A stretch of 64,000 bases of DNA, taken from assembly GCF_017348835.2 (NCBI RefSeq), contig NZ_CP071375.1; one strand, given 5' to 3'. This document shows positions 4,021-62,338 of this stretch, piece by piece. The position numbers were made by a program, and so were the translations under genes. The DNA is from Escherichia coli (GTDB lineage: Bacteria > Pseudomonadota > Gammaproteobacteria > Enterobacterales > Enterobacteriaceae). Numbering within the stretch: position 1 is the first letter of the stretch; every line of letters starts with the position of its first letter. The notes beneath the pieces are model-generated. The model made no database searches and was not told the DNA's origin. It worked only from the letters and a program-made list of their open reading frames with translations.

Positions 4021-4097
4021 TAAGGCAACCTCCGATAAGTAGGCGTTAAAACCACCACCGAAGAGACCAATCTTACGGGTGGTGGAACCGGGCGGAG

Positions 4098-6932
4098 TTG
4101 GTCTTACCGGCCTTATCGGATACCGGCGCATCTTTCGATGCCACCGCCCGGCCCACCATTGAGGTACAGCCGTGCGTGCAACACAAAAAAGACGCTGGCG
4201 CGTCATGTGTCGCCGATAAGACTTATTCAGGAGACCAATCCCGACGCCTGATTTTGCAGACGCGGCATAACGATACAACGATCGCGAAATGGCGACAAAC
4301 CCCTTTCCCGGAAGGCGGCTCGCAAAATCAGAAATATCACAGGGAAAGACAGAGCGCCGCAACGCGGCGGGATGTACCGCTTCACGTACAACGAAAACCA
4401 TTTTCCGGTAGCGGTGGAACTCCCCGGCGAACGCAGGTAACGCTGGAATACGACACCCTGAGCCGGGTGGTGAAAGAGACGGACCCGGCAGGCCGGGTGA
4501 CACAGACGCAGTGGAACGGCAGTTTTGCTGAAATCACGCGCCGGGCACTGGATGACGACCACGTATGGAAGGCGGATTACAACGAACACGGCCAGGTGAT
4601 ACGGGAGACGGACCCGGAAGGGCGCGTCACGCGCTACGGGTATGATGAACAGGGGCTGGCGGTCAGCCGCACGGATGCGCGGGGCGGCGAGGCTGCGCTG
4701 GCGCATGATGCGCGCGGCCAGCTGAGGCGTTACACCGACTGTTCAGGGCGTGCCACGGGTTATGAATACGATGAAGACGGCAACCTGACGGTGGTGACGG
4801 ACGCGGAGGGGAAAACGGTACGTATCCGCTATAACCGTCTGGGACTGCCGGAGACGGTAAATCATCCCGGTAAACAGCAGGACCGTTACACGTGGAACGC
4901 GCTGGGGTTACTGAGCAGCCACCGTCGCATCACAGGCAGTGTGCAGTCCTGGCAGTATACGCCGCGCGGTCTGCTGGCGCTCCACGTAGATGAAGAGAAA
5001 CGGGAGACGCGCTGGCATTATACCGCGGAGGGATGGATTGCCAGTCTGAGCAACGGCAACGGAGCGCTTTACCGGTTCAGTCACGATGCGGACGGACGGC
5101 TGACGGGAGAACAGCGCCCGGACGGTCTGATACGGATGTTTGTGCTGAATGCGGGCGGGTATCCGGTCATCATCCAGACGCAGGGTACAGAAGGCGGGGG
5201 GCGCAATGAACAGCAGGAGCGTGACGCGCTGGGCCGCCTGCTGCGCAGTGACACGCAGCACAGTACACGGACCTTCAGCTACAACCGTCTTGACCAGATA
5301 ACGGAAGTGACGCTCACCCCGACGAAAGAAGGGGAACGGCTGCACCACATGCAGGCGGACACGGTGCGCTTTGCGTATGACCGCAGCGGCTGGCTGACGG
5401 CAGAGCACAGCGTGCACGGCAGCATAAAATATCAGCGTGACGCGCTGGGCAATCCCACCGATATCACGTTGCCGGACGGGCAGCATCTCAGTCATCTTTA
5501 CTACGGCAGCGGACATCTGCTCCAGACGGCACTGGACGGTATCACGGTCAGCGAATATGAGCGTGACAGTCTGCACCGTCAGGTGATGCGCACGCAGGGG
5601 AAACTGGCGACGTTCAGCGGCTACAACGCCGACAACCGGTTAAGCTGGCAGCGCAGTCTGCCAGGTGGCAGCCAGAATCCACAGCAGACCGGTAACCCCC
5701 CGGCGCAGAACGACAGCGTGACGGCGCGGGACTATATCTGGAATGCGGACGGTGAGGTCGGCGGCATCAATGACAAACTGCGCGGTTGCCTGGTGTTCAG
5801 CTATGACCGCAGCGGCTGGCTGACCAGTCGCACGGGTCAGATGTACGACCATGACCATTATTATTACGACAAAGCGGGCAACCTGCTGACGGACGAGTAT
5901 CAGAGCGCGGTGATGGATAACCGCCTGCCGGGCTACGGGCGTGACCGTTACCGCTATAACGAATGGGGCGAACTGACAGAGCGCAGGGACCAGCAACTGG
6001 AGTGGAATGCGCAGGGCCAGTTAACGCGGGTCATCAGCAGCAACAGCGAGACGCGGTATCAGTATGATGCGCTGGGCAGGCGTATCAGCAAGGCGACCAG
6101 CAATCTCCATACCGACCGGGGAGAACGAAGCCGGACAACGTTTGTGTGGGAAGGGGTCCGGCTGTTGCAGGAGACAACGTGGCAGGGAAAGCGGACGTAC
6201 CTGTACGACGCGGAACAGCCGTACACGCCGGTGGCCGCCATCACCGGGCGCGGAGAGAGCCGGAAAATCTGGTATTACCACACGGACCTGACGGGCACGG
6301 TACAGGAGGTGACCGCGGCGGACGGGACGCTGGTGTGGGCGGGCTATCAGGCGGGGTTCGGAGAAAACCGGGGCGACATCAGCAACAGCGGGGCGTATTT
6401 TGAACAGCCGCTGCGGCTGCCGGGGCAGTATTATGATGAAGAGACGGGGCTGCACTATAATCTGTTCAGATATTATGCGCCGGAGTGCGGGAGGTTCGTA
6501 AGCCAGGATCCGATTTCGATCCGGGGTGGTCTGAATCTTTACCGGTATGCGCCGAATCCGATTACTTGGATCGATCCGTGGGGATTGGCAAAGGGGGATT
6601 ATGGTAAAATGCCTACGTTCCCTGGTTGGCAGAAACATCATAATATTCCACAAAATATGGCTACTCATTCGGCAATTGTTGACTCTGGATTTGATATACA
6701 TAATAGTCGTAACATTACAACCTTGCCAAAAACTGGAAGTATAGATACTGCCAGAACAGTGCACAGTGGAATGCACACAGGAGATTATGACAGGATGGTA
6801 AAAAATGCTTTAGATCAAATTGACTCGTTGAATGCTTCCCCTGAGATCAAAAAAATGCATATAGAAGCCTTATCTGATGATATTGGCAATAAATTGAGAA
6901 CAAAACAAATTACGTTAAATGCTGCATGTTGA
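4098..6932 (+). CDS. Orphan rhs fragment (N-terminally truncated core with YD repeats) with toxin tip CT2
   Basis: 944-aa ORF; YD-repeat Rhs core similarity begins near nt 4330 with a frame break just upstream. Core ends at DPWGL (6573-6587), then a ~115-aa tip containing WQKHHNIPQ and a downstream His (HSGMHTGDY), possibly an HNH/AHH-type nuclease. Confidence 0.7.
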   Translation: MVLPALSDTGASFDATARPTIEVQPCVQHKKDAGASCVADKTYSGDQSRRLILQTRHNDTTIAKWRQTPFPEGGSQNQKYHRERQSAATRRDVPLHVQRKPFSGSGGTPRRTQVTLEYDTLSRVVKETDPAGRVTQTQWNGSFAEITRRALDDDHVWKADYNEHGQVIRETDPEGRVTRYGYDEQGLAVSRTDARGGEAALAHDARGQLRRYTDCSGRATGYEYDEDGNLTVVTDAEGKTVRIRYNRLGLPETVNHPGKQQDRYTWNALGLLSSHRRITGSVQSWQYTPRGLLALHVDEEKRETRWHYTAEGWIASLSNGNGALYRFSHDADGRLTGEQRPDGLIRMFVLNAGGYPVIIQTQGTEGGGRNEQQERDALGRLLRSDTQHSTRTFSYNRLDQITEVTLTPTKEGERLHHMQADTVRFAYDRSGWLTAEHSVHGSIKYQRDALGNPTDITLPDGQHLSHLYYGSGHLLQTALDGITVSEYERDSLHRQVMRTQGKLATFSGYNADNRLSWQRSLPGGSQNPQQTGNPPAQNDSVTARDYIWNADGEVGGINDKLRGCLVFSYDRSGWLTSRTGQMYDHDHYYYDKAGNLLTDEYQSAVMDNRLPGYGRDRYRYNEWGELTERRDQQLEWNAQGQLTRVISSNSETRYQYDALGRRISKATSNLHTDRGERSRTTFVWEGVRLLQETTWQGKRTYLYDAEQPYTPVAAITGRGESRKIWYYHTDLTGTVQEVTAADGTLVWAGYQAGFGENRGDISNSGAYFEQPLRLPGQYYDEETGLHYNLFRYYAPECGRFVSQDPISIRGGLNLYRYAPNPITWIDPWGLAKGDYGKMPTFPGWQKHHNIPQNMATHSAIVDSGFDIHNSRNITTLPKTGSIDTARTVHSGMHTGDYDRMVKNALDQIDSLNASPEIKKMHIEALSDDIGNKLRTKQITLNAAC

Positions 6933-17704: not shown

Positions 17705-17850
<146 letters not shown>

Positions 17851-26828: not shown

Positions 26829-27716
26829 TCAGGCTGCCAGATCATTATTTCCGATGGAAGCATAATAAGCTTTTTCTGCTTCTGCCGGAGGAATATGGCC
26901 CAGCCTTTCCAGCAATCGTCGATTGTTATACCAGTCCACCCACGTTAGTGTGGCCAGTTCCACTTCTGTCCGGTTTTTCCAGCTCTTACGGTGTATTACC
27001 TCCGCTTTGTAAAGACCATTGATGCTCTCCGCCATCGCGTTGTCATACGAGTCGCCAGTACTCCCTGTTGATGCCAGTAATCCGGCTTCCTTAAGCCGCT
27101 GCGTGTAGGCCAGCGATACATACTGAGAACCTTTATCACTGTGATGGATTGTGCCGGACGGCCGACGGGCCCACAACGCCTGCTCCAGTGCATCCAGCAC
27201 GAATGTTGTTTCCATGGATGATGAGACCTGCCATCCCACGATGTATCCGGCGAACACATCAATGATGAACGCCACATAAACGAAGCCCTGCCATGTGCTT
27301 ACCCAGGTAAAATCAGCCACCCACAACTGGTCTGGACGTTCTGCCACGAACTGACGGTTTACGCGGTCGCATGCGGCAACGGCTTTCCGGCTGACGGTAG
27401 TGCGGACCTTTTTACCCCGGAGAACACCGGCAAGTCCCATAACTGCCATGAGACGTGCCACAGTGCATCTGGCCACTCTGATACCTTCCCGTAACAACTG
27501 ACGCCAGACTTTACGCACACCGTATACCTGGTGATTTTCATCGTATACGCGCTGTATCTCTTTCTTCAGCCAGTCATCGTGCTGCGCACGGGCACTGCGT
27601 TTATCCGGATGATGTCGCTGTTGCTGACAATGGTAATACGTTGACGGGGCAATATGCAGTTCGCTGCATACCGGTCCGACCCCGTACTGCTCACGCAGCT
27701 TATCCAGCAGTGGCAT
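26829..27716 (-). CDS. IS629-like transposase OrfB (DDE catalytic domain)
   Basis: 295 aa; start overlaps the orfA stop, consistent with IS3-type frameshifting. Confidence 0.85.
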   Translation of the reverse strand: MPLLDKLREQYGVGPVCSELHIAPSTYYHCQQQRHHPDKRSARAQHDDWLKKEIQRVYDENHQVYGVRKVWRQLLREGIRVARCTVARLMAVMGLAGVLRGKKVRTTVSRKAVAACDRVNRQFVAERPDQLWVADFTWVSTWQGFVYVAFIIDVFAGYIVGWQVSSSMETTFVLDALEQALWARRPSGTIHHSDKGSQYVSLAYTQRLKEAGLLASTGSTGDSYDNAMAESINGLYKAEVIHRKSWKNRTEVELATLTWVDWYNNRRLLERLGHIPPAEAEKAYYASIGNNDLAA

Positions 27717-28042
27717 TATTTTTTCCAGAGGCGGTCGAACTCCGCCTTCGCAAAATAAGCGGAAGCCTGGCGAAGGATATCGTTACTGCGGCGCAGTTCA
27801 CGATTTTCACGTTCCAGCTCTTTCAGACGCTGACGTTCAGCGGTGGTGAGTCCACCATCACCACTCCCGGTATCCCGCTCATGCTGGCGAACCCAGACAC
27901 GCAGAGTCTCCGGCGTACAGCCAATCTTTGGGGCAATGGAACAAATTGCCGCCCACTGTGAGTCATATTCATCCTGACTTTCCAGAACCATACGAATCGC
28001 CCGCTGACGGACTTCGGGGGAAAAACGAGTATTTTTAGTCAT
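27716..28042 (-). CDS. IS629-like transposase OrfA
   Basis: 108 aa, [26 protein letters not shown]..., helix-turn-helix. Confidence 0.85.
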
Positions 28043-36124: not shown

Positions 36125-36200
36125 GCCGATATAGCTCAGTTGGTAGAGCAGCGCATTCGTAATGCGAAGGTCGTAGGTTCGACTCCTATTATCGGCACCA
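36125..36200 (+). tRNA. thrW: tRNA-Thr (CGU)
   Basis: GCCGATATAGCTCAGTTGGTAGAGCAGCGCATTCGTAATGCGAAGGTCGTAGGTTCGACTCCTATTATCGGCACCA; cloverleaf with CGT anticodon and encoded CCA. Confidence 0.95.
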
Positions 36201-42599: not shown

Positions 42600-44417
42600 G
42601 TGAATATGGCAGTAAAAATTTCAGGTGTACTGAAAGACGGCACAGGAAAACCGGTACAGAACTGCACAATCCAGCTGAAAGCAAAACGTAACAGTACCAC
42701 GGTGGTGGTGAACACGCTGGCATCTGAAAATCCGGATGAAAAGGGGATAGTACAGCTCAGCAGTGCGACCAACAGCACTTCCGAGTCACTGGCGGCAACG
42801 CCAAAAGCCGTTAAGGCCGCGTATGACCTGGCTAACGGGAAATACACCGCACAGGATGCAACGACAGCACAGAAAGGGATAATCCAGCTAAGCAGCGCGA
42901 CCAACAGCACGTCTGAAACGCTGGCGGCAACGCCAAAGGCAGTAAAAGCAGCCAATGACAATGCTGAGAAACGTCTGCAGAAAGATCAGAACGGTGCGGA
43001 TATCCCTGGCAAAGACACCTTTACGAAAAATATTGGTGCCTGCCGTGCCTTCGGTGGGTCAGTAAGCACAACAACAGGAAACTGGACGACTGCACAGTTT
43101 ATCGAGTGGCTGGATTCTCAGGGAGCATTTAACCATCCATACTGGATGTGCAAGGGTTCCTGGTCTTATGGCAATAATAAAATCATTACTGATACTGGCT
43201 GCGGTAATATTCATCTCGCCGGAGCTGTCATTGAAGTAATGGGGATAAAGTCAGCGATGACGATCCGCATTACCACTCCGACCACATCCAGCGGTGGCGG
43301 AACAACCAACGCCCAGTTTACCTATATTAATCACGGAACAGATTATTCACCTGGCTGGCGAAGGGACTATAACTCCAGAAATAAGCCAACGGCATCAGAG
43401 ATCGGGGCGCTACCGTCAGGTGGAACAGCAGTATCATCAGTTAATCTGGCTTCAAAAGGTCGGGTAGCCGCGCTGACAGACAATACGCAGGGGGCAGCAG
43501 GTCTTGAGTTATACGAGGTGTATAACAACGGATATCCAACAGCGTATGGAAATATCATTCACCTGAAAGGGATGACAGCCGTTGGCGAAGGTGAGTTACT
43601 CATCGGCTGGAGTGGTACAAGTGGTGCTCATGCTCCGGCATTTATTCGTTCACGACGGGATACGACCGACGCAAACTGGTCGCCGTGGGCGCAGCTTTAC
43701 ACCTCGGCTCATCCTCCTGCAGAGTTTTATCCAGTCGGTGCACCAATCCCGTGGCCATCAGATACCGTTCCGTCTGGTTATGCCCTGATGCAGGGGCAGA
43801 CTTTTGACAAATCTGCTTACCCGAAACTTGCAGCCGCTTATCCGTCAGGCGTGATCCCTGATATGCGTGGCTGGACGATTAAGGGCAAGCCCGCCAGTGG
43901 TCGTGCCGTATTGTCTCAGGAACAGGATGGCATTAAATCGCATACCCACAGCGCCAGCGCATCCAGTACGGATTTGGGGACGAAAACCACATCGTCGTTT
44001 GATTACAGCACTAAATCCACGAATAACACTGGTGCGCATACCCATAGTTTAAGTGGCAGCACGAATGCAGCTGGTAATCACAGCCATAGAGATGGCCGTC
44101 GATTTAACCCCAGTGTTTTTAAAGATACTTATCAATATGGTTATACAAGCTCAGGTCAAAATACTTGGGGTGTACAAGGCTCAGTAGGTATGTCTACGGG
44201 GTGGTTAGCTAATACCAGTACAGATGGTAATCATAGCCACTCACTGTCCGGCACAGCAGCATCTGCAGGTGCACACGCGCATACTGTCGGTATTGGTGCT
44301 CATACGCACTCCGTTGCGATTGGTTCACATGGACACACCATCACCGTTAACGCTGCTGGTAACGCGGAAAACACCGTCAAAAACATCGCATTTAACTATA
44401 TTGTGAGGCTTGCATAA
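42600..44417 (+). CDS. stf: Side tail fibre protein Stf (shorter than lambda Stf)
   Basis: [28 protein letters not shown]... N-terminus and the conserved C-terminal His-rich repeats ([27 protein letters not shown]...[18 protein letters not shown]). Confidence 0.85.
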
Positions 44418-45001
44418 TGGCATTCAGAATGAGTGAACAACCACGGACCATAAAAATTTATAATCTGCTGGCCGGAACTAATGAATTTATTGGTGAAGGT
44501 GACGCATATATTCCGCCTCATACAGGTCTGCCAGCAAACAGTACCGATATTGCACCGCCAGATATTCCGGCTGGCTTTGTGGCTGTTTTCAACAGTGATG
44601 AGGCATCGTGGCATCTCGTTGAAGATCATCGGGGAAAAACCGTCTATGACGTGGCTTCCGGCGACGCGTTATTTATTTCTGAACTTGGCTCGTTACCGGA
44701 AAATGTCACCTGGTTATCGCCGGAAGGGGAATATCAGAAGTGGAACGGCACAGCCTGGGTGAAGGATACGGAAGCAGAAAAACTGTTCCGGATCCGGGAG
44801 GCGGAAGAAACAAAAAACAACCTGATGCAGGTAGCCAGTGAGCATATTGCGCCACTTCAGGATGCTGCAGATCTGGAAATCGCAACGGAGGAAGAAAACT
44901 CGTTGCTGGAAGCCTGGAAAAAGTATCGGGTGTTGCTGAACCGTGTTAATACAACAACTGCACCTGATATTGAGTGGCCTACGAACCCTGTCAGGGAGTA
45001 A
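44417..45001 (+). CDS. tfa: Tail fibre assembly protein Tfa
   Basis: 194-aa product; ATG overlaps the stf stop. Confidence 0.85.
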
Positions 45002-45362
45002 TCATTGGGATTATGCCGCAGAAACGTTGTATGCAATAACGTTTTGCGGTTGGCTGGTGAACTTCCGATAGTGCGGGTGTTGAATGATTTCCAGCTGCTA
45101 CCGATTTTACATATTTTTGCCTGAGAGGATTTGAACCGCCTCCACAGACTCTACATCACAGATAACCACTGTCACGAGGACTGTTAGTGCTGTGAGTTCA
45201 ACGGGGCGATGTACGCTACCTTTAATCAAGAGGGAGAGGTACGTTGCTAAGATGAGTTTATATTCATCAACTAAGTGCAGATCAGCGAATAACTAAAACT
45301 TGGCTGTCTGAACCGCCCCGGAAATCCTGGAGACTAAACTCCCTGAGAAAGAGGTAAACAGG

Positions 45363-45689
45363 ATGACTAAAAATACTCGTTTTTCCCCCGAAGTCCGTCA
45401 GCGGGCGATTCGTATGGTTCTGGAAAGTCAGGATGAATATGACTCACAGTGGGCGGCAATTTGTTCCATTGCCCCAAAGATTGGCTGTACGCCGGAGACT
45501 CTGCGTGTCTGGGTTCGCCAGCATGAGCGGGATACCGGGAGTGGTGATGGTGGACTCACCACCGCTGAACGTCAGCGTCTGAAAGAGCTGGAACGTGAAA
45601 ATCGTGAACTGCGCCGCAGTAACGATATCCTTCGCCAGGCTTCCGCTTATTTTGCGAAGGCGGAGTTCGACCGCCTCTGGAAAAAATAA
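45363..45689 (+). CDS. IS629-like transposase OrfA
   Basis: Product identical to the copy at 27716..28042. Confidence 0.85.
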
Positions 45690-46576
45690 TGCCACTGCTG
45701 GATAAGCTGCGTGAGCAGTACGGGGTCGGACCGGTATGCAGCGAACTGCATATTGCCCCGTCAACGTATTACCATTGTCAGCAACAGCGACATCATCCGG
45801 ATAAACGCAGTGCCCGTGCGCAGCACGATGACTGGCTGAAGAAAGAGATACAGCGCGTATACGATGAAAATCACCAGGTATACGGTGTGCGTAAAGTCTG
45901 GCGTCAGTTGTTACGGGAAGGTATCAGAGTGGCCAGATGCACTGTGGCACGTCTCATGGCAGTTATGGGACTTGCCGGTGTTCTCCGGGGTAAAAAGGTC
46001 CGCACTACCGTCAGCCGGAAAGCCGTTGCCGCATGCGACCGCGTAAACCGTCAGTTCGTGGCAGAACGTCCAGACCAGTTGTGGGTGGCTGATTTTACCT
46101 GGGTAAGCACATGGCAGGGCTTCGTTTATGTGGCGTTCATCATTGATGTGTTCGCCGGATACATCGTGGGATGGCAGGTCTCATCATCCATGGAAACAAC
46201 ATTCGTGCTGGATGCACTGGAGCAGGCGTTGTGGGCCCGTCGGCCGTCCGGCACAATCCATCACAGTGATAAAGGTTCTCAGTATGTATCGCTGGCCTAC
46301 ACGCAGCGGCTTAAGGAAGCCGGATTACTGGCATCAACAGGGAGTACTGGCGACTCGTATGACAACGCGATGGCGGAGAGCATCAATGGTCTTTACAAAG
46401 CGGAGGTAATACACCGTAAGAGCTGGAAAAACCGGACAGAAGTGGAACTGGCCACACTAACGTGGGTGGACTGGTATAACAATCGACGATTGCTGGAAAG
46501 GCTGGGCCATATTCCTCCGGCAGAAGCAGAAAAAGCTTATTATGCTTCCATCGGAAATAATGATCTGGCAGCCTGA
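45689..46576 (+). CDS. IS629-like transposase OrfB
   Basis: Product identical to the copy at 26829..27716. Confidence 0.85.
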   Translation: MPLLDKLREQYGVGPVCSELHIAPSTYYHCQQQRHHPDKRSARAQHDDWLKKEIQRVYDENHQVYGVRKVWRQLLREGIRVARCTVARLMAVMGLAGVLRGKKVRTTVSRKAVAACDRVNRQFVAERPDQLWVADFTWVSTWQGFVYVAFIIDVFAGYIVGWQVSSSMETTFVLDALEQALWARRPSGTIHHSDKGSQYVSLAYTQRLKEAGLLASTGSTGDSYDNAMAESINGLYKAEVIHRKSWKNRTEVELATLTWVDWYNNRRLLERLGHIPPAEAEKAYYASIGNNDLAA

Positions 46577-46618
46577 GTTCACAGATAAAACACTCTCCAG
46601 GAAACCCGGGGCGGTTCA

Positions 46619-48420
46619 TCTCCCGTCGCGCTATGCACGCCGACCTCCACAAAATGCCCGGCAAAGGTCGACTGCTGGTACTCCTTGCTCAGTGTTCCGA
46701 ATTCAATGCTCTCTTCCGCTGTCAGTCTGCCGCCTGCGGTGGCCTCATGTAGCGTGGCGCTTCGGGTACCGTTGGTAATCTTGCCGTCGGCAAACTGCGA
46801 CTGCTCAGGATCAAACCCGACTGCCGAGGCAATCATTTCGCGAAGCTTCACACAGGCGGCGTAAACGCCGGAGGTGGAGGTATTCGCGCCCCATTGTCCA
46901 CCAGAACCCGCAGAAACCGGGAAACTGGAATCGCCGAGGTGAACCGCAACCTGCTCCAGCGGTACGCCAAGCATTTCCGCTGCCGTCTGGGCCAGAATGG
47001 TGTAGCTGCCGGTGCCAATGTCGGTCATGTCCGTTTCCACGGTAACGGTGCCGTTTGGTTCGAGGTGAACCCGAGCCCCCGATTTTTCCAGCAGATTATT
47101 GCGAAAGCCCGCCGCGACGCCGTGGCCGACTAGCCACTCTCCGTCGCGTACCTGTCCAGGTGTGGCGTTGCGCTGCTTCCAGCCAAATTTATCCGCTCCG
47201 GCGCGCAAGCACTCGATAAGCTGACGGCGAGAGAAGCGGCGCGTCGGGTCGGCGGGGTCAACCTGAGTGTCATTCAGGATGCGAAACTCGACGGGATCGA
47301 TGCCCGCTTTTTCCGCCAGTTCGTCGATCGCGATTTCGAGCGCCATCAGACCGGGGGCTTCGCCGGGCGCACGCATGGCGTTCCCTTCCGGCAAATCAAG
47401 CGTGGCGAGCCGCAGGCCGGTATGACGGTTTGCCCCGGCGTAGAGTAATTCGCTTTGCTGTACCGCCGTTTCCGGCGTGCCGCCGGGCAGGTTTCCGGAC
47501 CAGCTTTCATGTGAGATAGCGGTGATTTTCCCGCTCTGGTCGGCACCGATACGCAAGTGCTGAAGGGTGGCGGGGCGGTGCGTGGTGTTATTGGGAATAG
47601 AGGGGCGGGGGAGCATCACTTTAACCGGACGTTTCACCGCTCGGGCGGCGAGGGCTGCCAGCAGCGCATCGCTTCTCAGGAAGAGCTTGCCGCCAAACCC
47701 TCCGCCGATATACGGGGAGATAATACGCACATTCTCCACGGGCACTTTCAGCGTTTTTGCCAGATCGGTGCGGCACCAGTCAATCATCTGATTTGAGGTC
47801 CAGAGAGTAAGCTTATTTCCATCCCAGACGGCCATCGAGGCATGCGGCTCCATCGCCATATGGCTCTGGTCCGGGGTCGTGTAGGTAGCATCAATCTTCA
47901 CCGCAGCGGAGGAGAAAGCCCCGTCAAAGTCACCGACGTTTTTGTCGGGCGTGCCTTCCGGCGGCTGATTGACGGCCTGTTTTTCGTCCGCCAGGGAGTA
48001 AGCTCCTTTATTACGGCGATAGTGCGCCTGCACCAGCGAGGCCGCCGCTCGCGCCTGTTCGAAGGTCTCGGCCACTACCAGCGCAATGGCCTGATGATAG
48101 TGCTCAATAGTGGGGCCGCCTAACAGCCTGGCGGTGTTTTTGTCGCCTTTGCCGAGTGCCCCGGCGTTACTGGCGGTAATGACAGCCAGTACGCCCGGCG
48201 CTTTTTGCGCGGCGTCCGTATCAAGGGCGGTGAGGCGTCCTTTGGCAATGGCGGAACCGACGATATAGCCATAGGCGGCGTTGGGGGATTCTTCATGCCA
48301 TTCGTAGGCGTAGCGTGCCGTGCCGGTAGTTTTCAGCGGTCCGTCGATGCGGTCATAGGGACGACCGACAACCTTCAGCTGATCGATCGGGTTTTCCCCT
48401 GCGGGTTTATCAAATTTCAT
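46619..48420 (-). pseudogene. paoC: Aldehyde oxidoreductase molybdopterin-binding subunit PaoC (YagR), 3'-truncated by the IS
   Basis: Track ORF 46579..48420 reads into the IS terminal repeat (C-terminus ...[11 protein letters not shown] is IS-encoded); native protein is ~730 aa, ~600 aa remain. Confidence 0.8.
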
Positions 48421-51090: not shown

Positions 51091-51335
51091 TGCATTGAAT
51101 GATAAAATGGCGCAAATACAGCGCCATTTTTACAGGTTAAAAACATTGCTTTTTATATTCTGATTCAGATAGTCAGTGAGTATATAGTGCTACTTCAGGA
51201 TGATGTAGATCCGAAGAACACTACAGAAGAGAGGCATTGTTGCTGGCAAATACAAGAAGTTTCGGGTTTTGTTGTCCCTGAAAACGAAGCCCCGCTATTA
51301 TCGCTGGCGGGGCAGTGCAATTAATTATTGTATGT

Positions 51336-51665: not shown

Positions 51666-51977
51666 AATTCACCAGTACAGCTATAAATCGTAAAGAGAAC
51701 TGCGGTACGTCGTATGCAGGGACGTATCGCGGTTGGCTGGTGTACTTTCGATAGTGTGAGTATTGAATGATTTCCAGCCGTTACCGATTTTACGTCCTAA
51801 TTAGTGAAGAAACCACTCGTTAGCAGGCCGCCTGGTACCTTTCCGTGTCTCCTGAACACTGTGGTGTGCATATGAGAAAGCCTATCGTTACAGGTGATAT
51901 TGACGATCGCTTCCACATCATTTAAACGATTTTTGAGTCTCTGAGGTGGAATTCTTCCCTCGACCGATGGATAAGTA

Positions 51978-60290: not shown

Positions 60291-61195
60291 AAAGATACAT
60301 GCTCATCCGGATCATTTCAACACCCAATCCCTATGACCCTTTGTGGATGTGGAATTTCCGCAACGGGGAACTCTGGCATTGTTAACAGCCATTGGCGACG
60401 CTCCCATAAACGCCTGGATGAGTGATTGATGATAATTTCGCTGAGAGTATGGATTTTTCGAGAATGGAGGTTATCTCCACTTTACTGGCCGATGATTTAT
60501 CGCAGTATGATTGATTACCTGACAGCGTGTATTCCTCTCCCACGGATATAATAATTACTTACAAAAAGGGAGAGGATGCATATTTTAAATATCACTGAAG
60601 TGAACAGTTTATTGCCGTTATTAATAGAAGTGGAGAAATAAATAGGCGTATTCTACAATTGCGACAAAAACAACGATATTAATCAGTTTATGACTGATTT
60701 GTTGTACTTTATTCTCTTTCATTGGTACTTCCTCGCTTTAAAAAAGAGCGCACTTCGTAAGTGCCCTTATATAAATAACGAGTTTGGTCAACCAATTTTT
60801 TGACATGTATCACAAATTTGAATAGATGTATTACATCGGCTATCTTTTATTGCACCAACGTCATTGATATATGTCGCCTGAAGTCAGTTCCGGGAATGAG
60901 TCTGATCTCAAGACTGGCCCAGTCCTGGCGTTGATTGGCGCTGAGGAGCATATCGCATCTCATCATAATGTCGTATCTCCTGGGGTGTTATACAAGATAT
61001 CGTTGTTGGTAACCTGGGCGAGGAATTGAGCTCTATTAAACCGTCAACTATGCCGGATACATACTGGATTACACTGCAGGCACGCCTTATGAGAGAACGT
61101 GCCGCAGTGACGGGTTAATTATCTGAAAGAATTTGTGAGGCTGTATCGGTTACTCATTGATTTGATAGTTTTACTCTCGGGAGAGTAATAGATAT

Positions 61196-62338
61196 TTAAT
61201 CCATTAACGGAAACCAGCCAGTTCCTTTCGATGCCTGAATTTGATCCCATAGTTTATCCGGAATGGTTAATTCAGGAACAAGTTGTGGATTAAGGGTTGT
61301 TTGAATTTCATGGCCTCTACCTGATTCAGCTAAAGTCACCCATTCTGGATTTATCACCAGCCCTTTACCGATCGCAACAAGTGGCAGGCCAGTGGAAATT
61401 GCTTCTTGTGCCTGAGACGGTGTGCGTATTTTACCTGCAGCGATTACCGGCACTCTGCCTGCAATATGATTTAAAATCAATTCAATAGTTCGGGGGCCAT
61501 TTGGCGACTCAACAGGGTAGCTATCGTTAATACTGACCAGCGAGGTATGTATATACGAAATACCGGATGAAATGAGCCGATCAAGGAGTTTATAAGTATC
61601 CTCTATCCGCAGCCCCCCTGTTGCAGATTCTTCAGGAGATATTCTGTAACCGATGGCAAAGGGCTTTGTCGCATATTCATAGACTACATTTTTTACTTCC
61701 TGTAATACGGCCAGCGGGAAGCGCATACGTCCTTCGAGATCTCCTCCCCATCGGTCATTACGCTGGTTAAATAGAGGGGAGAAGAAATTCTGTAGAAGGA
61801 ATCCGTGCGCACCATGAAGTTCAATGCCATCAAAACCTGCTTTAATCGCCCTTTTTGTGACATCTCCGAATGCTCTAATGGTTTCCTGAATTTCGTTTTC
61901 AGTCATTTCCCTGCTTTGTACCACTCTCTTCATAAAGTCACCAGATTTTACGCTTGATGCGCTGGCACTAATAACATCGTTATTTGGTACAAGCTCCGGG
62001 ATGGCTTTATTACCGGCGTGGAAAATCTGCAAAATAGCCGGAGCACCGCCACTTTTGGCTGCCGCTGCTAACTTTTCAAGGCTGTTAATGAAACGGTCGT
62101 CATACGCGGCAAATTCATGAGTAAACCCAATGCCGCTTGGCGTGACATAGGTACATCCTGTTATTACTAAACCAACATTTTGTGAGCGACGTTTATAAAA
62201 TTCGAGTTCTTGCTCAGAGATGGTTCCATCAGGATTCGCTGACCAGGTCGTCATAGGAGCCATAACGATACGATTACGTAGCTTTATTTTTTCTGTCAGC
62301 ATAAAAGGAGAAAACAATGATGGGTGTTTATTTGTCAT
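61196..62338 (-). CDS. Old Yellow Enzyme-family NADH:flavin oxidoreductase
   Basis: 380 aa; TIM-barrel OYE motifs (MAPMTTW...; HGAHGFLLQNFFSPLFNQRNDRWGG). Confidence 0.7.
   Translation of the reverse strand: MTNKHPSLFSPFMLTEKIKLRNRIVMAPMTTWSANPDGTISEQELEFYKRRSQNVGLVITGCTYVTPSGIGFTHEFAAYDDRFINSLEKLAAAAKSGGAPAILQIFHAGNKAIPELVPNNDVISASASSVKSGDFMKRVVQSREMTENEIQETIRAFGDVTKRAIKAGFDGIELHGAHGFLLQNFFSPLFNQRNDRWGGDLEGRMRFPLAVLQEVKNVVYEYATKPFAIGYRISPEESATGGLRIEDTYKLLDRLISSGISYIHTSLVSINDSYPVESPNGPRTIELILNHIAGRVPVIAAGKIRTPSQAQEAISTGLPLVAIGKGLVINPEWVTLAESGRGHEIQTTLNPQLVPELTIPDKLWDQIQASKGTGWFPLMD

What the first reader, a model, noticed from the sequence alone, without database searches (positions are those of the whole stretch)
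45046..45113. Diverged ~66-bp repeat, first copy after tfa (second copy near 51729)
gcggttggctggtgaacttccgatagtgcgggtgttgaatgatttccagctgctaccgattttac at 45046-45113 recurs with about eight mismatches at 51729-51794, between ykgJ and ecpE. One copy lies just inside the prophage right end and the other ~6.6 kb away in backbone DNA. These could be relics of a former prophage boundary or attachment-region duplication, a small non-coding gene family, or an unrecognised repeat class.
Basis: seen in the sequence. Interest (0 to 1): 0.45.

Follow-up and report, generated by a model that had tools for sequence, protein, structure and literature searches.

The report
Lambdoid prophage dinI-downstream non-coding module
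The two copies are real homologues of a short non-coding module found at the tail-fibre end of lambda-like phages, where it usually forms the untranslated tail and terminator of an SOS-inducible dinI-like gene. The "backbone" copy belongs to an ancient, decayed prophage end that nearly all E. coli carry.

Summary
The repeat is real. Window 45046-45110 and 51729-51793 match at 58/65 bases, and the homology extends to 87 bp (E 2e-21). There are only two copies in the window.

It belongs to a family found in 5390 of 5426 complete E. coli genomes (median 3 copies) and in 192 phage records, including lambda's b region. Each member has a GC-rich hairpin that keeps its pairing through compensatory changes (10 of 13 pairs), followed by a nearly invariant block of about 61 nt.

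Read on the minus strand, the order is block, hairpin, then a U-rich tail in 43 of 71 variants. That is the end of a leftward transcript. The upstream gene is most often a dinI-like gene with two LexA boxes; otherwise it is int, sib-attP-int or b-region cargo.

Copy 2 lies in a fossil prophage end: tfa relic, ykgJ, hairpin plus block, dinI pseudogene. Copy 1 is the lambda-type version, with no dinI and no U-tail.

The homology is already published as "attB-in-PP_2" and annotated as "attP" in HK633. In four phage types I checked, the real att lies elsewhere, and the chromosomal copy is unoccupied in about 4950 genomes.

Function is inferred: a 3'UTR plus terminator, possibly an SOS-induced regulatory RNA. 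No transcript data were available.

The parts
44417..45001 (+). Intact tail fibre assembly gene tfa, the last late gene of the resident lambda-like prophage. Copy 1 follows it.
   Evidence: ORF list. PGAP annotation of the identical sequence in strain PE164. Rfam IS009 hit inside it at 44760-44958.
45016..45049 (-). Copy 1 hairpin: CCGCAGAAACGTT, 9-nt loop, AACGTTTTGCGG. On the minus strand it is followed by CAUAAUCC, so this copy has no U-tract.
   Evidence: Sequence. Fold of -12.8 kcal/mol (L001 row). Aligned with the homologous hairpins in A2.
45050..45110 (-). Copy 1 conserved block. It is the lambda-type variant, 91.7% identical to lambda over 96 nt.
45111..45309 (.). Lambda b-region-type right flank ('class C'). 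Its first ~130 bp are homologous to lambda. It is cut by an IS3-family element that starts at 45310.
   Evidence: BLAST against lambda: window 45014-45189 matches at 84%. Flank classes. IS annotation and ALIL pseudoknot at 45644-45760.
51096..51293 (+). Relic of a tfa 3' end. It corresponds to Rfam IS009 and lies in the yagU/ykgJ spacer where the published sRNA EcsR2 is located.
   Evidence: Rfam 169 bits. tblastn of Tfa residues 136-175 hits 51160-51277. blastn of 44822-44938 against 51160-51274, 72%. PMC4350180.
51336..51665 (-). ykgJ (CxxCxxCC domain). Paralogues at 83-85% identity sit in the same slot, between tail fibre genes and the hairpin, in phage contigs.
   Evidence: Pfam PF03692. 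Loci L043, L022 and L055.
51700..51732 (-). Copy 2 hairpin. Relative to copy 1 it keeps pairing through changes on both sides. On the minus strand it is followed by the moderately U-rich GUUCUCUUUA.
   Evidence: (L003 row, -12.5 kcal/mol).
51733..51793 (-). Copy 2 conserved block.
51804..51943 (-). Degraded dinI-like pseudogene covering residues ~29-82 of 82. Its stop codon lies ~10 nt from the block, as in intact phage copies.
   Evidence: tblastn E 7e-5 in two collinear segments. DNA homology of 51794-51858 to phage dinI 3' ends.

Best explanation
Both copies belong to one conserved module of about 100 bp, carried by Escherichia lambdoid (pro)phages at the junction between the tail-fibre genes and the accessory/integration region.

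Read on the minus strand of the window, the module is the end of a leftward transcription unit. It has a nearly invariant block of about 61 nt, then a GC-rich hairpin whose sequence drifts while its pairing is kept, then in most copies a U-rich tail. Together these form a 3' untranslated region plus a Rho-independent terminator.

In the commonest arrangement the unit is a dinI-like gene. Its promoter carries two LexA boxes, so the block would be transcribed during the SOS response. In other phages the same module follows int, follows sib/tI-attP-int, or sits inside lambda's b region.

Copy 2 is what remains of such a phage end. It was captured long ago and is now fixed in E. coli as: tfa fragment, ykgJ, hairpin plus block, dinI pseudogene. 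Copy 1 is the lambda-type version in the resident prophage. It has no dinI and no U-tail.

Shown: the homology, the anatomy, the covariation, the contexts and the fossil. Inferred: the transcribed strand, the terminator activity and any regulatory role of the block.
For: - Family size: 5390 of 5426 E. coli genomes, median 3 places; 192 phage records including lambda, HK630, phi80 and Stx phages.
- Hairpin: 10 of 13 pairs show changes on both sides, 88% of cells are paired, 0 of 500 shuffles reach the observed score, and slid controls give 30-38% paired. Every variant folds, at -9 to -24 kcal/mol.
- Strand asymmetry: at least 5 U in the 9 nt after the stem on the minus strand in 43 of 71 variants. 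On the plus strand the stem is always followed by YTGGCTGG.
- Context: an 82-aa DinI-like ORF ends ~10 nt from the block in about 60 of 108 element-bearing stretches. Its DinI identity is supported by phrog_189, E 6e-31.
- SOS control: the promoter has a TTGACA -35 and two CTG-N10-CAG LexA boxes.
- Selection: within dinI-linked copies, nucleotide diversity is 0.24-0.27 in the hairpin, 0.004-0.10 in the block and 0.05-0.16 in the dinI coding sequence. The block is therefore conserved beyond what linkage explains.
- Fossil: dinI and tfa pseudogene matches flank copy 2. Phage contigs carry intact ykgJ-hairpin-block-dinI in the same order.
- Fixation: ykgJ-block-ecpE is contiguous in 4951 of 5426 genomes.
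Against: - No transcript data were examined, so the strand, the 3' end and RNA stability are all inferred.
- Copy 1 and lambda lack the U-tract and lack an upstream dinI. There the module cannot be a classical terminator.
- No sigma-70 promoter or terminator was called by the simple scans.
- The stem inside the block (GGCUGG/CCAGCC) has only one compensated change (GGATGG/CCATCT in L141 and L154) and several uncompensated ones. Wobble patterns do not clearly favour either strand.
- Rfam's CssrB model, based on a ~180-nt Shigella northern band, places this hairpin at the 3' end of a plus-strand RNA.
- A published study reports prophages flanked by this sequence and treats it as an att site.
- Most homologues were collected with exact anchors inside the block, which inflates its apparent invariance.
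Confidence: 0.6

Rival explanations
1. The element is an attachment site (published as the 96-bp 'attB-in-PP_2', annotated 'attP' in HK633). An integrase recombines within it, and that is why it is conserved between variable flanks and why the chromosome and prophages share it.
For: - Nakamura et al. 2021 describe lambda-like prophages bounded by this 96-bp sequence inside other prophages. They note its ~81% identity to the ykgJ/ecpE spacer.
- The HK633 depositors annotated it as attP.
- A conserved core between variable flanks is what an att core looks like.
Against: - In HK633-type phages, homology between prophage and phage stops at the argW core TGGTGTCCCCTGCAG beyond int, not at the element.
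- A dinI-linked phage sits next to dusA, with its int between.
- The Stx2a phage of 12E129 has its 21-bp yecE att 223 bp beyond dinI.
- A lambda-int phage has sib, the attP core GCTTTTTTATACTAA and int to the right of the element.
- In lambda itself the element lies between ea47 and ea31 in the b region; lambda's own attP is not within the stretch examined.
- The chromosomal copy is uninterrupted in 4951 genomes, and no split copies appeared in the ranking.
- The hairpin stems covary rather than keep a fixed sequence.
- The PPompW 'attB-in-PP_2' is itself a decayed ykgJ'-hairpin-block-dinI' relic.
- Because most lambdoid prophages carry the element at one end, tandem or nested prophages will appear flanked by it without recombination in it. 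This last point is my inference, not a test.
Confidence: 0.12
2. The module has no function of its own beyond a hairpin. It is a module-junction 'linker' that persists because homologous recombination between co-resident lambdoid prophages keeps copying it.
For: - The flanks on both sides change abruptly at the same two boundaries across at least five flank classes.
- Genomes hold up to 9 copies.
- The element is restricted to Escherichia among the species representatives searched, so the pool is young and recombining.
Against: Homogenisation by recombination should conserve the adjacent hairpin equally. Yet hairpin diversity is 0.24-0.27 against 0.004-0.10 for the block within the same dinI-linked set, and the hairpin changes are compensatory. 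That points to selection on structure in one part and on sequence in the other.
Confidence: 0.2
3. The block encodes a small protein. PGAP calls a 39-aa 'capsid protein' at 45005-45124 (+), and some lambda records call a 65-aa ORF that overlaps it.
For: Annotated in PE164 and other RefSeq genomes and in a lambda record.
Against: - No NCBIfam or PHROG family matches it.
- Copy 2 and K-12 have an in-frame TGA.
- Homologues carry 1-nt insertions and deletions inside the block.
- The start of the ORF lies in the covarying hairpin and in non-homologous flanks.
- The differences between the two copies are not concentrated at synonymous positions (my reading).
Confidence: 0.02

Closest known systems
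attB-in-PP_2, the 96-bp 'att sequence in prophages' of Nakamura et al. 2021, PLoS Pathog (PMC8112680); also the 'attP' misc_feature of phage HK633 (NC_019719)
   Same: It is the same sequence family. The paper reports ~81-84% identity between this prophage sequence and the K-12 ykgJ/ecpE spacer. Records from that study carry the element where expected: LC567841 at 88680-88761 next to dinI, with a decayed copy in PPompW.
   Different: The paper reads it as an integration target that phages copied from the chromosome. Here the chromosomal locus looks derived from a phage, because pseudogenes of tfa and dinI flank it. In four phage types the functional att lies elsewhere.
[quoted passage not shown]
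   Same: Both are non-coding sequence between the stop codon of a LexA-controlled dinI gene and its terminator. In DinR the base-pairing region lies just upstream of the terminator.
   Different: DinR belongs to the chromosomal dinI, and its pairing region is described as Klebsiella-specific. The chromosomal dinI 3'UTR of E. coli K-12 has no trace of this block. No Hfq binding, processing or target is known for the phage element. I did not compare its sequence with DinR.
Lambda sib/tI, the retroregulator and terminator downstream of int
   Same: Both are leftward-reading hairpin elements downstream of the int/accessory genes at the same end of the phage map. In one lambda-int phage the element abuts the tI hairpin directly.
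   Different: They are different sequences. sib acts through RNase III on N-antiterminated read-through transcripts. Nothing comparable was tested here.
CssrB (Rfam RF02799), chromosome-encoded Shigella flexneri sRNA B (PMC3071730)
   Same: The last ~45 nt of the CssrB model are this hairpin with its A-rich leader.
   Different: Only 27 bits against a gathering score of 76. The 127-nt body is absent from the window. CssrB is modelled on the opposite (plus) strand and ends at the hairpin, so it does not contain the conserved block.
EcsR2 / Rfam IS009 (PMC4350180)
   Same: It is a neighbouring piece of the same fossil prophage end: a tfa 3' fragment in the yagU-ykgJ spacer.
   Different: It is a separate sequence about 400 bp away on the other side of ykgJ. 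It is not homologous to the repeat.

Membership tests
Phage/bacterial attachment site (attB-in-PP_2 / attP) | Same sequence as the published 96-bp att sequence | tested here: inconclusive
   The published sequence is only in figures, which I could not read. The text gives ~81% identity to the ykgJ/ecpE spacer. Records from the study carry the element at the described positions.
Phage/bacterial attachment site (attB-in-PP_2 / attP) | The prophage-host junction (end of phage homology) falls inside the element | tested here: not met
   HK633-type: the junction is at the argW core beyond int. 12E129 Stx2a phage: a 21-bp att lies 223 bp beyond dinI. Lambda-int phage: the attP core lies ~190 bp to the right. 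dusA-adjacent prophage.
Phage/bacterial attachment site (attB-in-PP_2 / attP) | The chromosomal site is found occupied by prophages in some strains | tested here: not met
   4951 of 5426 genomes have ykgJ-element-ecpE contiguous. The remaining matches are low-identity phage copies. Only the best place per record was listed, so rare cases could be missed.
Phage/bacterial attachment site (attB-in-PP_2 / attP) | The two window copies bracket one integrated element as near-identical direct repeats | tested here: not met
   7 of 65 mismatches. The interval holds an IS3-family element, paoC'BA, yagU and ykgJ.
Rho-independent terminator (leftward) | Stable GC-rich stem-loop conserved as a structure | tested here: met
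Rho-independent terminator (leftward) | U-tract immediately 3' of the stem | tested here: inconclusive
   Present in 43 of 71 variants. Moderate in copy 2 (GUUCUCUUUA). Absent in copy 1 and lambda. The generic scan called no terminator in the window.
Rho-independent terminator (leftward) | Transcripts actually end there | not testable with these tools
   No expression data were available.
[quoted passage not shown] | Lies between the stop codon of an expressed gene and its terminator | tested here: met
   Met in dinI-linked phage copies. Copy 2 keeps only a dinI pseudogene. Copy 1 has no upstream gene.
[quoted passage not shown] | Stable processed RNA, Hfq binding, and a base-pairing target | not testable with these tools
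   No mention in the text or held supplements of Tree 2014 or Waters 2017 under the search terms dinI, ykgJ or tail fibre.
[quoted passage not shown] | Sequence homology to Klebsiella DinR or to the enterobacterial chromosomal dinI 3'UTR | tested here: not met
   The K-12 dinI 3'UTR has no similarity. The DinR sequence itself was not available.
Any Rfam family | Score at or above the gathering threshold | tested here: not met

The most novel reading that the evidence does not exclude
The nearly invariant ~61-nt block is an SOS-induced, prophage-encoded regulatory RNA: a 3'UTR-derived sRNA or RNA sponge released from dinI or int transcripts. It is shared by most Escherichia lambdoid phages, including lambda, acts on a host or phage target through the invariant stretch AAAUCAUUCAAUACUCGCACUAUCG, and has no Rfam family.
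Probability: 0.25. Interest if true: 0.7.

Novelty: new member of a known kind. Interest (0 to 1): 0.4.

Why it matters
- It explains a repeat present in almost every E. coli genome, and it revises a published reading. The ykgJ/ecpE spacer looks like a fossil phage end rather than the chromosomal source of a phage "att" sequence.
- ykgJ itself then appears to be a domesticated phage cargo gene.
- Annotating this element as attP or attB, or as a "capsid protein", is probably wrong.
- Phage biologists get a concrete candidate: about 61 nt conserved more tightly than the neighbouring coding sequence. It sits behind a LexA-controlled promoter in many prophages and is present in lambda's dispensable b region. 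It can be tested directly with existing SOS-induction RNA-seq or Hfq data sets.
- If it is only a terminator or junction sequence, the finding is ordinary.

Tried and rejected
- **Own sigma-70 promoter.** The conserved right edge reads TAAAAT on the minus strand, but none of the five flank classes has a usable -35 at 16-18 nt (my reading). The scans found nothing.
- **Small ORF.** Rejected.
- **Known RNA family.** None. There is only a partial CssrB hairpin match.
- **HK633 'attP'.** The true argW-type core is at L006 4000-4014, and prophage homology ends there.
- **Mimic of the rpoS leader that sponges DsrA.** I noticed this by eye. The duplex is -18.4 kcal/mol, with p = 0.034 against 1000 shuffles. 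The sRNA was chosen post hoc and its sequence came from memory, so I do not count this as support.
- **Chi site.** GCTGGTGA is one base off Chi, and those two positions vary among homologues.
- **tRNA fragment in the copy-1 flank.** There is a GGTTCAAATCC motif, but ARAGORN and Rfam find nothing.
- **Literature on EHEC Hfq-bound sRNAs.** AgvB and AsxR are at the PR' moron site and are unrelated. The supplements have no hit for dinI or ykgJ.
- **RNAalifold on a plain MAFFT alignment.** It gave no structure because indels in the hairpin put it out of register. I replaced it with per-sequence folds and explicit pair counts.
- **Two scripts that tried to locate the U-tail by refolding.** They mis-set the window and I discarded them.

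Full report
**1. The observation**

The 65-mer at 45046-45110 recurs at 51729-51793 on the same strand with 7 mismatches. Homology continues leftwards to 87 bp: 45024-45110 against 51707-51793, 85% identity, E 2.4e-21. A degenerate pattern built from the pair finds nothing else in the window, against 0.00 expected by chance. A profile built from 71 homologues finds only these two full copies.

**2. How common it is**

A 96-nt query around copy 1 matches 5390 of 5426 complete E. coli genomes, with a median of 3 places and up to 9. It also matches 192 phage records: lambda, lambda imm21, HK629/HK630, phi80, phage 21, HK633, HK75, mEp phages and many Stx1/Stx2 phages.

In lambda it lies in the b region between ea47 and ea31. 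An exact 24-mer pattern scanned over one genome per bacterial species hit only Escherichia. Three tiny contigs in unrelated assemblies also matched; two of them are 95-96% identical to the E. coli ykgJ-ecpE region and look like contamination.

**3. Anatomy**

I aligned 71 distinct homologues from viral contigs, K-12, PE164 and HK633. In the window's plus orientation the module reads:
- an A-rich run;
- a GC-rich hairpin (typically CCGCAGCACGT, loop CGTATGCAAGA, ACGTGCTGCGG);
- a nearly invariant block, GGYTGGCTGGYGAACTTTCGATAGTGCGAGTATTGAATGATTTCCAGCCGTTACCGATTTTAC.

Homology stops abruptly after the block and the sequences fall into a few flank classes.

The hairpin is a conserved structure, not a conserved sequence. 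Ten of its 13 pairs show changes on both sides, 0 of 500 shuffles reach the observed covariation, and slid controls pair at only 30-38%. Every variant folds at -9 to -24 kcal/mol. The two window copies already show this: AAACGTT/AACGTTT in copy 1 against TACGTC/GACGTA in copy 2.

The A-rich run lies on the left of the hairpin only. The U-tract that a terminator needs therefore exists on the minus strand, in 43 of 71 variants with at least 5 U in 9 nt. The plus-strand side is always YTGGCTGG. On that basis I read the module on the minus strand: block, then hairpin, then U-tail.

**4. What lies upstream on the minus strand**

- **Largest flank class (about 60 of 108 stretches).** The block begins ~10 nt after the stop codon of an 82-aa leftward ORF. 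This ORF is a DinI-like protein: phrog_189 at E 6e-31, and NCBIfam DinI at 2e-20, below the equivalog cut-off. It is annotated dinI in LC567841.
- **Its promoter.** It has a TTGACA -35 and two LexA boxes, CACTGTTTATCCATACAGTT and TACTGTATACAAACACAGTA.
- **HK633-like phages.** The module lies 72 nt downstream of int.
- **A lambda-int phage.** The module abuts the sib/tI hairpin, with the attP core ~190 bp away and int beyond.
- **Lambda and copy 1.** The module is followed by a ~95-nt conserved stretch and then variable cargo genes.

The chromosomal dinI of K-12 has a short, unrelated 3'UTR.

**5. Evidence for selection**

Among 37 distinct dinI-linked copies, nucleotide diversity is:

| Region | Diversity |
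|---|---|
| Hairpin | 0.24-0.27 |
| Conserved block | 0.004-0.10 |
| dinI coding sequence | 0.05-0.16 |

Two adjacent segments therefore evolve in opposite ways. The hairpin varies freely but compensates, and the block barely varies. Hitch-hiking or gene conversion alone does not explain this. One caveat applies: the homologues were fetched with exact anchors inside the block, so part of its invariance is built in.

The stem inside the block (GGCUGG/CCAGCC) has one compensated change and several uncompensated ones. Wobble patterns do not settle the strand.

**6. Copy 2 is part of a fossil prophage end**

Four features sit in a row:
- Rfam IS009 hits both the intact tfa (44760-44958) and the yagU-ykgJ spacer (51096-51293). 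Tfa residues 136-175 align there. This spacer is where the published sRNA EcsR2 lies.
- ykgJ follows.
- The hairpin and block follow.
- To the right of the block, DinI residues 29-82 align to 51943-51804 in two collinear pieces, E 7e-5.

Phage contigs carry the intact version in the same order and orientation: tail fibre genes, a ykgJ paralogue at 83-85% identity, hairpin, block, complete dinI with its LexA boxes. The chromosomal arrangement is contiguous in 4951 of 5426 genomes.

The simplest reading is phage to chromosome. That is the reverse of the direction proposed in the literature.

**7. Copy 1**

It is 91.7% identical to lambda over 96 nt, and its right flank matches lambda for ~130 bp. 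It starts 45 bp after tfa. It has no U-tract and no dinI, and its flank is cut by an IS3-family element at 45310. In this copy the module is probably inert or, at most, a stabilising hairpin.

**8. What is already published**

Nakamura et al. 2021 (PMC8112680) describe a 96-bp 'attB-in-PP_2' in prophages, ~81-84% identical to the ykgJ/ecpE spacer. They treat it as an integration target taken from the chromosome. The HK633 record annotates the element as attP.

My tests do not support att as its general function:
- HK633's argW-type core lies beyond int, and prophage homology ends exactly there.
- Three other phage types have their att elsewhere.
- In lambda itself the element sits between ea47 and ea31 in the b region.
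- The chromosomal site is not seen occupied.
- The PPompW copy is a decayed ykgJ'-hairpin-block-dinI' relic.

I could not examine the reported prophage-in-prophage cases directly. Because nearly every lambdoid prophage carries the element at one end, nested or tandem prophages will look flanked by it anyway. That point is inference, not a test.

**9. Function**

The best-supported reading is a 3'UTR plus intrinsic terminator of leftward accessory transcripts, most often SOS-inducible dinI. It would also shield the convergent tail-fibre genes from antisense read-through. The sequence-level conservation of the block suggests something more specific.

The closest working analogy is Klebsiella DinR, an Hfq-dependent sRNA cut from the dinI 3' end that represses ftsZ. 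There is no sequence relationship to the E. coli chromosomal dinI UTR and no expression evidence. I put this regulatory-RNA reading at about 0.25.

Evidence against a purely leftward reading is the CssrB model, which places the hairpin at the end of a plus-strand Shigella RNA.

**10. Verdict**

The repeat is real and its family, origin and anatomy are now explained. Its existence is already in the literature under a different interpretation. Its molecular role remains an inference that existing or simple experiments could settle.

Noticed in passing
window 51096-51293: Rfam IS009 (169 bits) in the yagU-ykgJ spacer. It is a tfa 3' fragment and lies in the spacer where the published E. coli-specific sRNA EcsR2 is located. 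A second IS009 hit lies inside the intact tfa at 44760-44958.
   Followed up: partly
window 27645-27761 (-) and 45644-45760 (+); IS left end at 45310: There are two IS3-family copies in inverted orientation, detected as ALIL frameshift pseudoknot hits. In strain PE164, whose sequence is otherwise identical, the copy-1 and copy-2 regions lie 23 kb apart on opposite strands. That suggests an IS-mediated inversion or rearrangement. The IS at 45310 truncates the prophage flank and abuts a shortened paoC (46579-48420).
   Followed up: partly
window 45111-45205; lambda L005 about 2597-2690: About 95 nt immediately right of copy 1 are conserved in lambda's b region and in ~40 prophage contigs. Unrelated cargo genes follow in either orientation, so this looks like a cargo or defence hot spot. 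It contains a T-loop-like GGTTCAAATCC motif, but ARAGORN and Rfam find nothing.
   Followed up: partly
window 61074-61108: The hairpin CTGCAGGCACG..CGTGCCGCAG resembles the element's hairpin, with a similar loop (nhmmer E 0.009). It lies just 3' of an Old Yellow Enzyme-family oxidoreductase gene (61196-62338, minus). The conserved block does not follow it convincingly.
   Followed up: partly
window 45005-45124 (+): RefSeq/PGAP annotates a 39-aa 'capsid protein' (WP_106121378.1) across the hairpin and block. No family supports it and it is not conserved as an ORF. It is probably a mis-annotation propagated through many genomes.
   Followed up: yes
window 4075-4263 (-), 17715-17792 (+), 36125-36197 (+): Rfam hits at gathering score: C4 antisense RNA and isrK side by side, naRNA4 (a REP-type element), and a tRNA inside the prophage.
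   Followed up: no
L131 (Lysobacter sp. A03, 401-nt contig) and L135 (Chryseobacterium, 262-nt contig): These tiny contigs in unrelated assemblies are 95-96% identical to the E. coli ykgJ-ecpE region. They are almost certainly E. coli contamination in those assemblies.
   Followed up: yes
L127 2740-2769 (K-12 Rac right end, between ynaM and ttcC'): A 30-nt match to the hairpin part only (87% identity), near the Rac prophage boundary. It may be another decayed copy.
   Followed up: no
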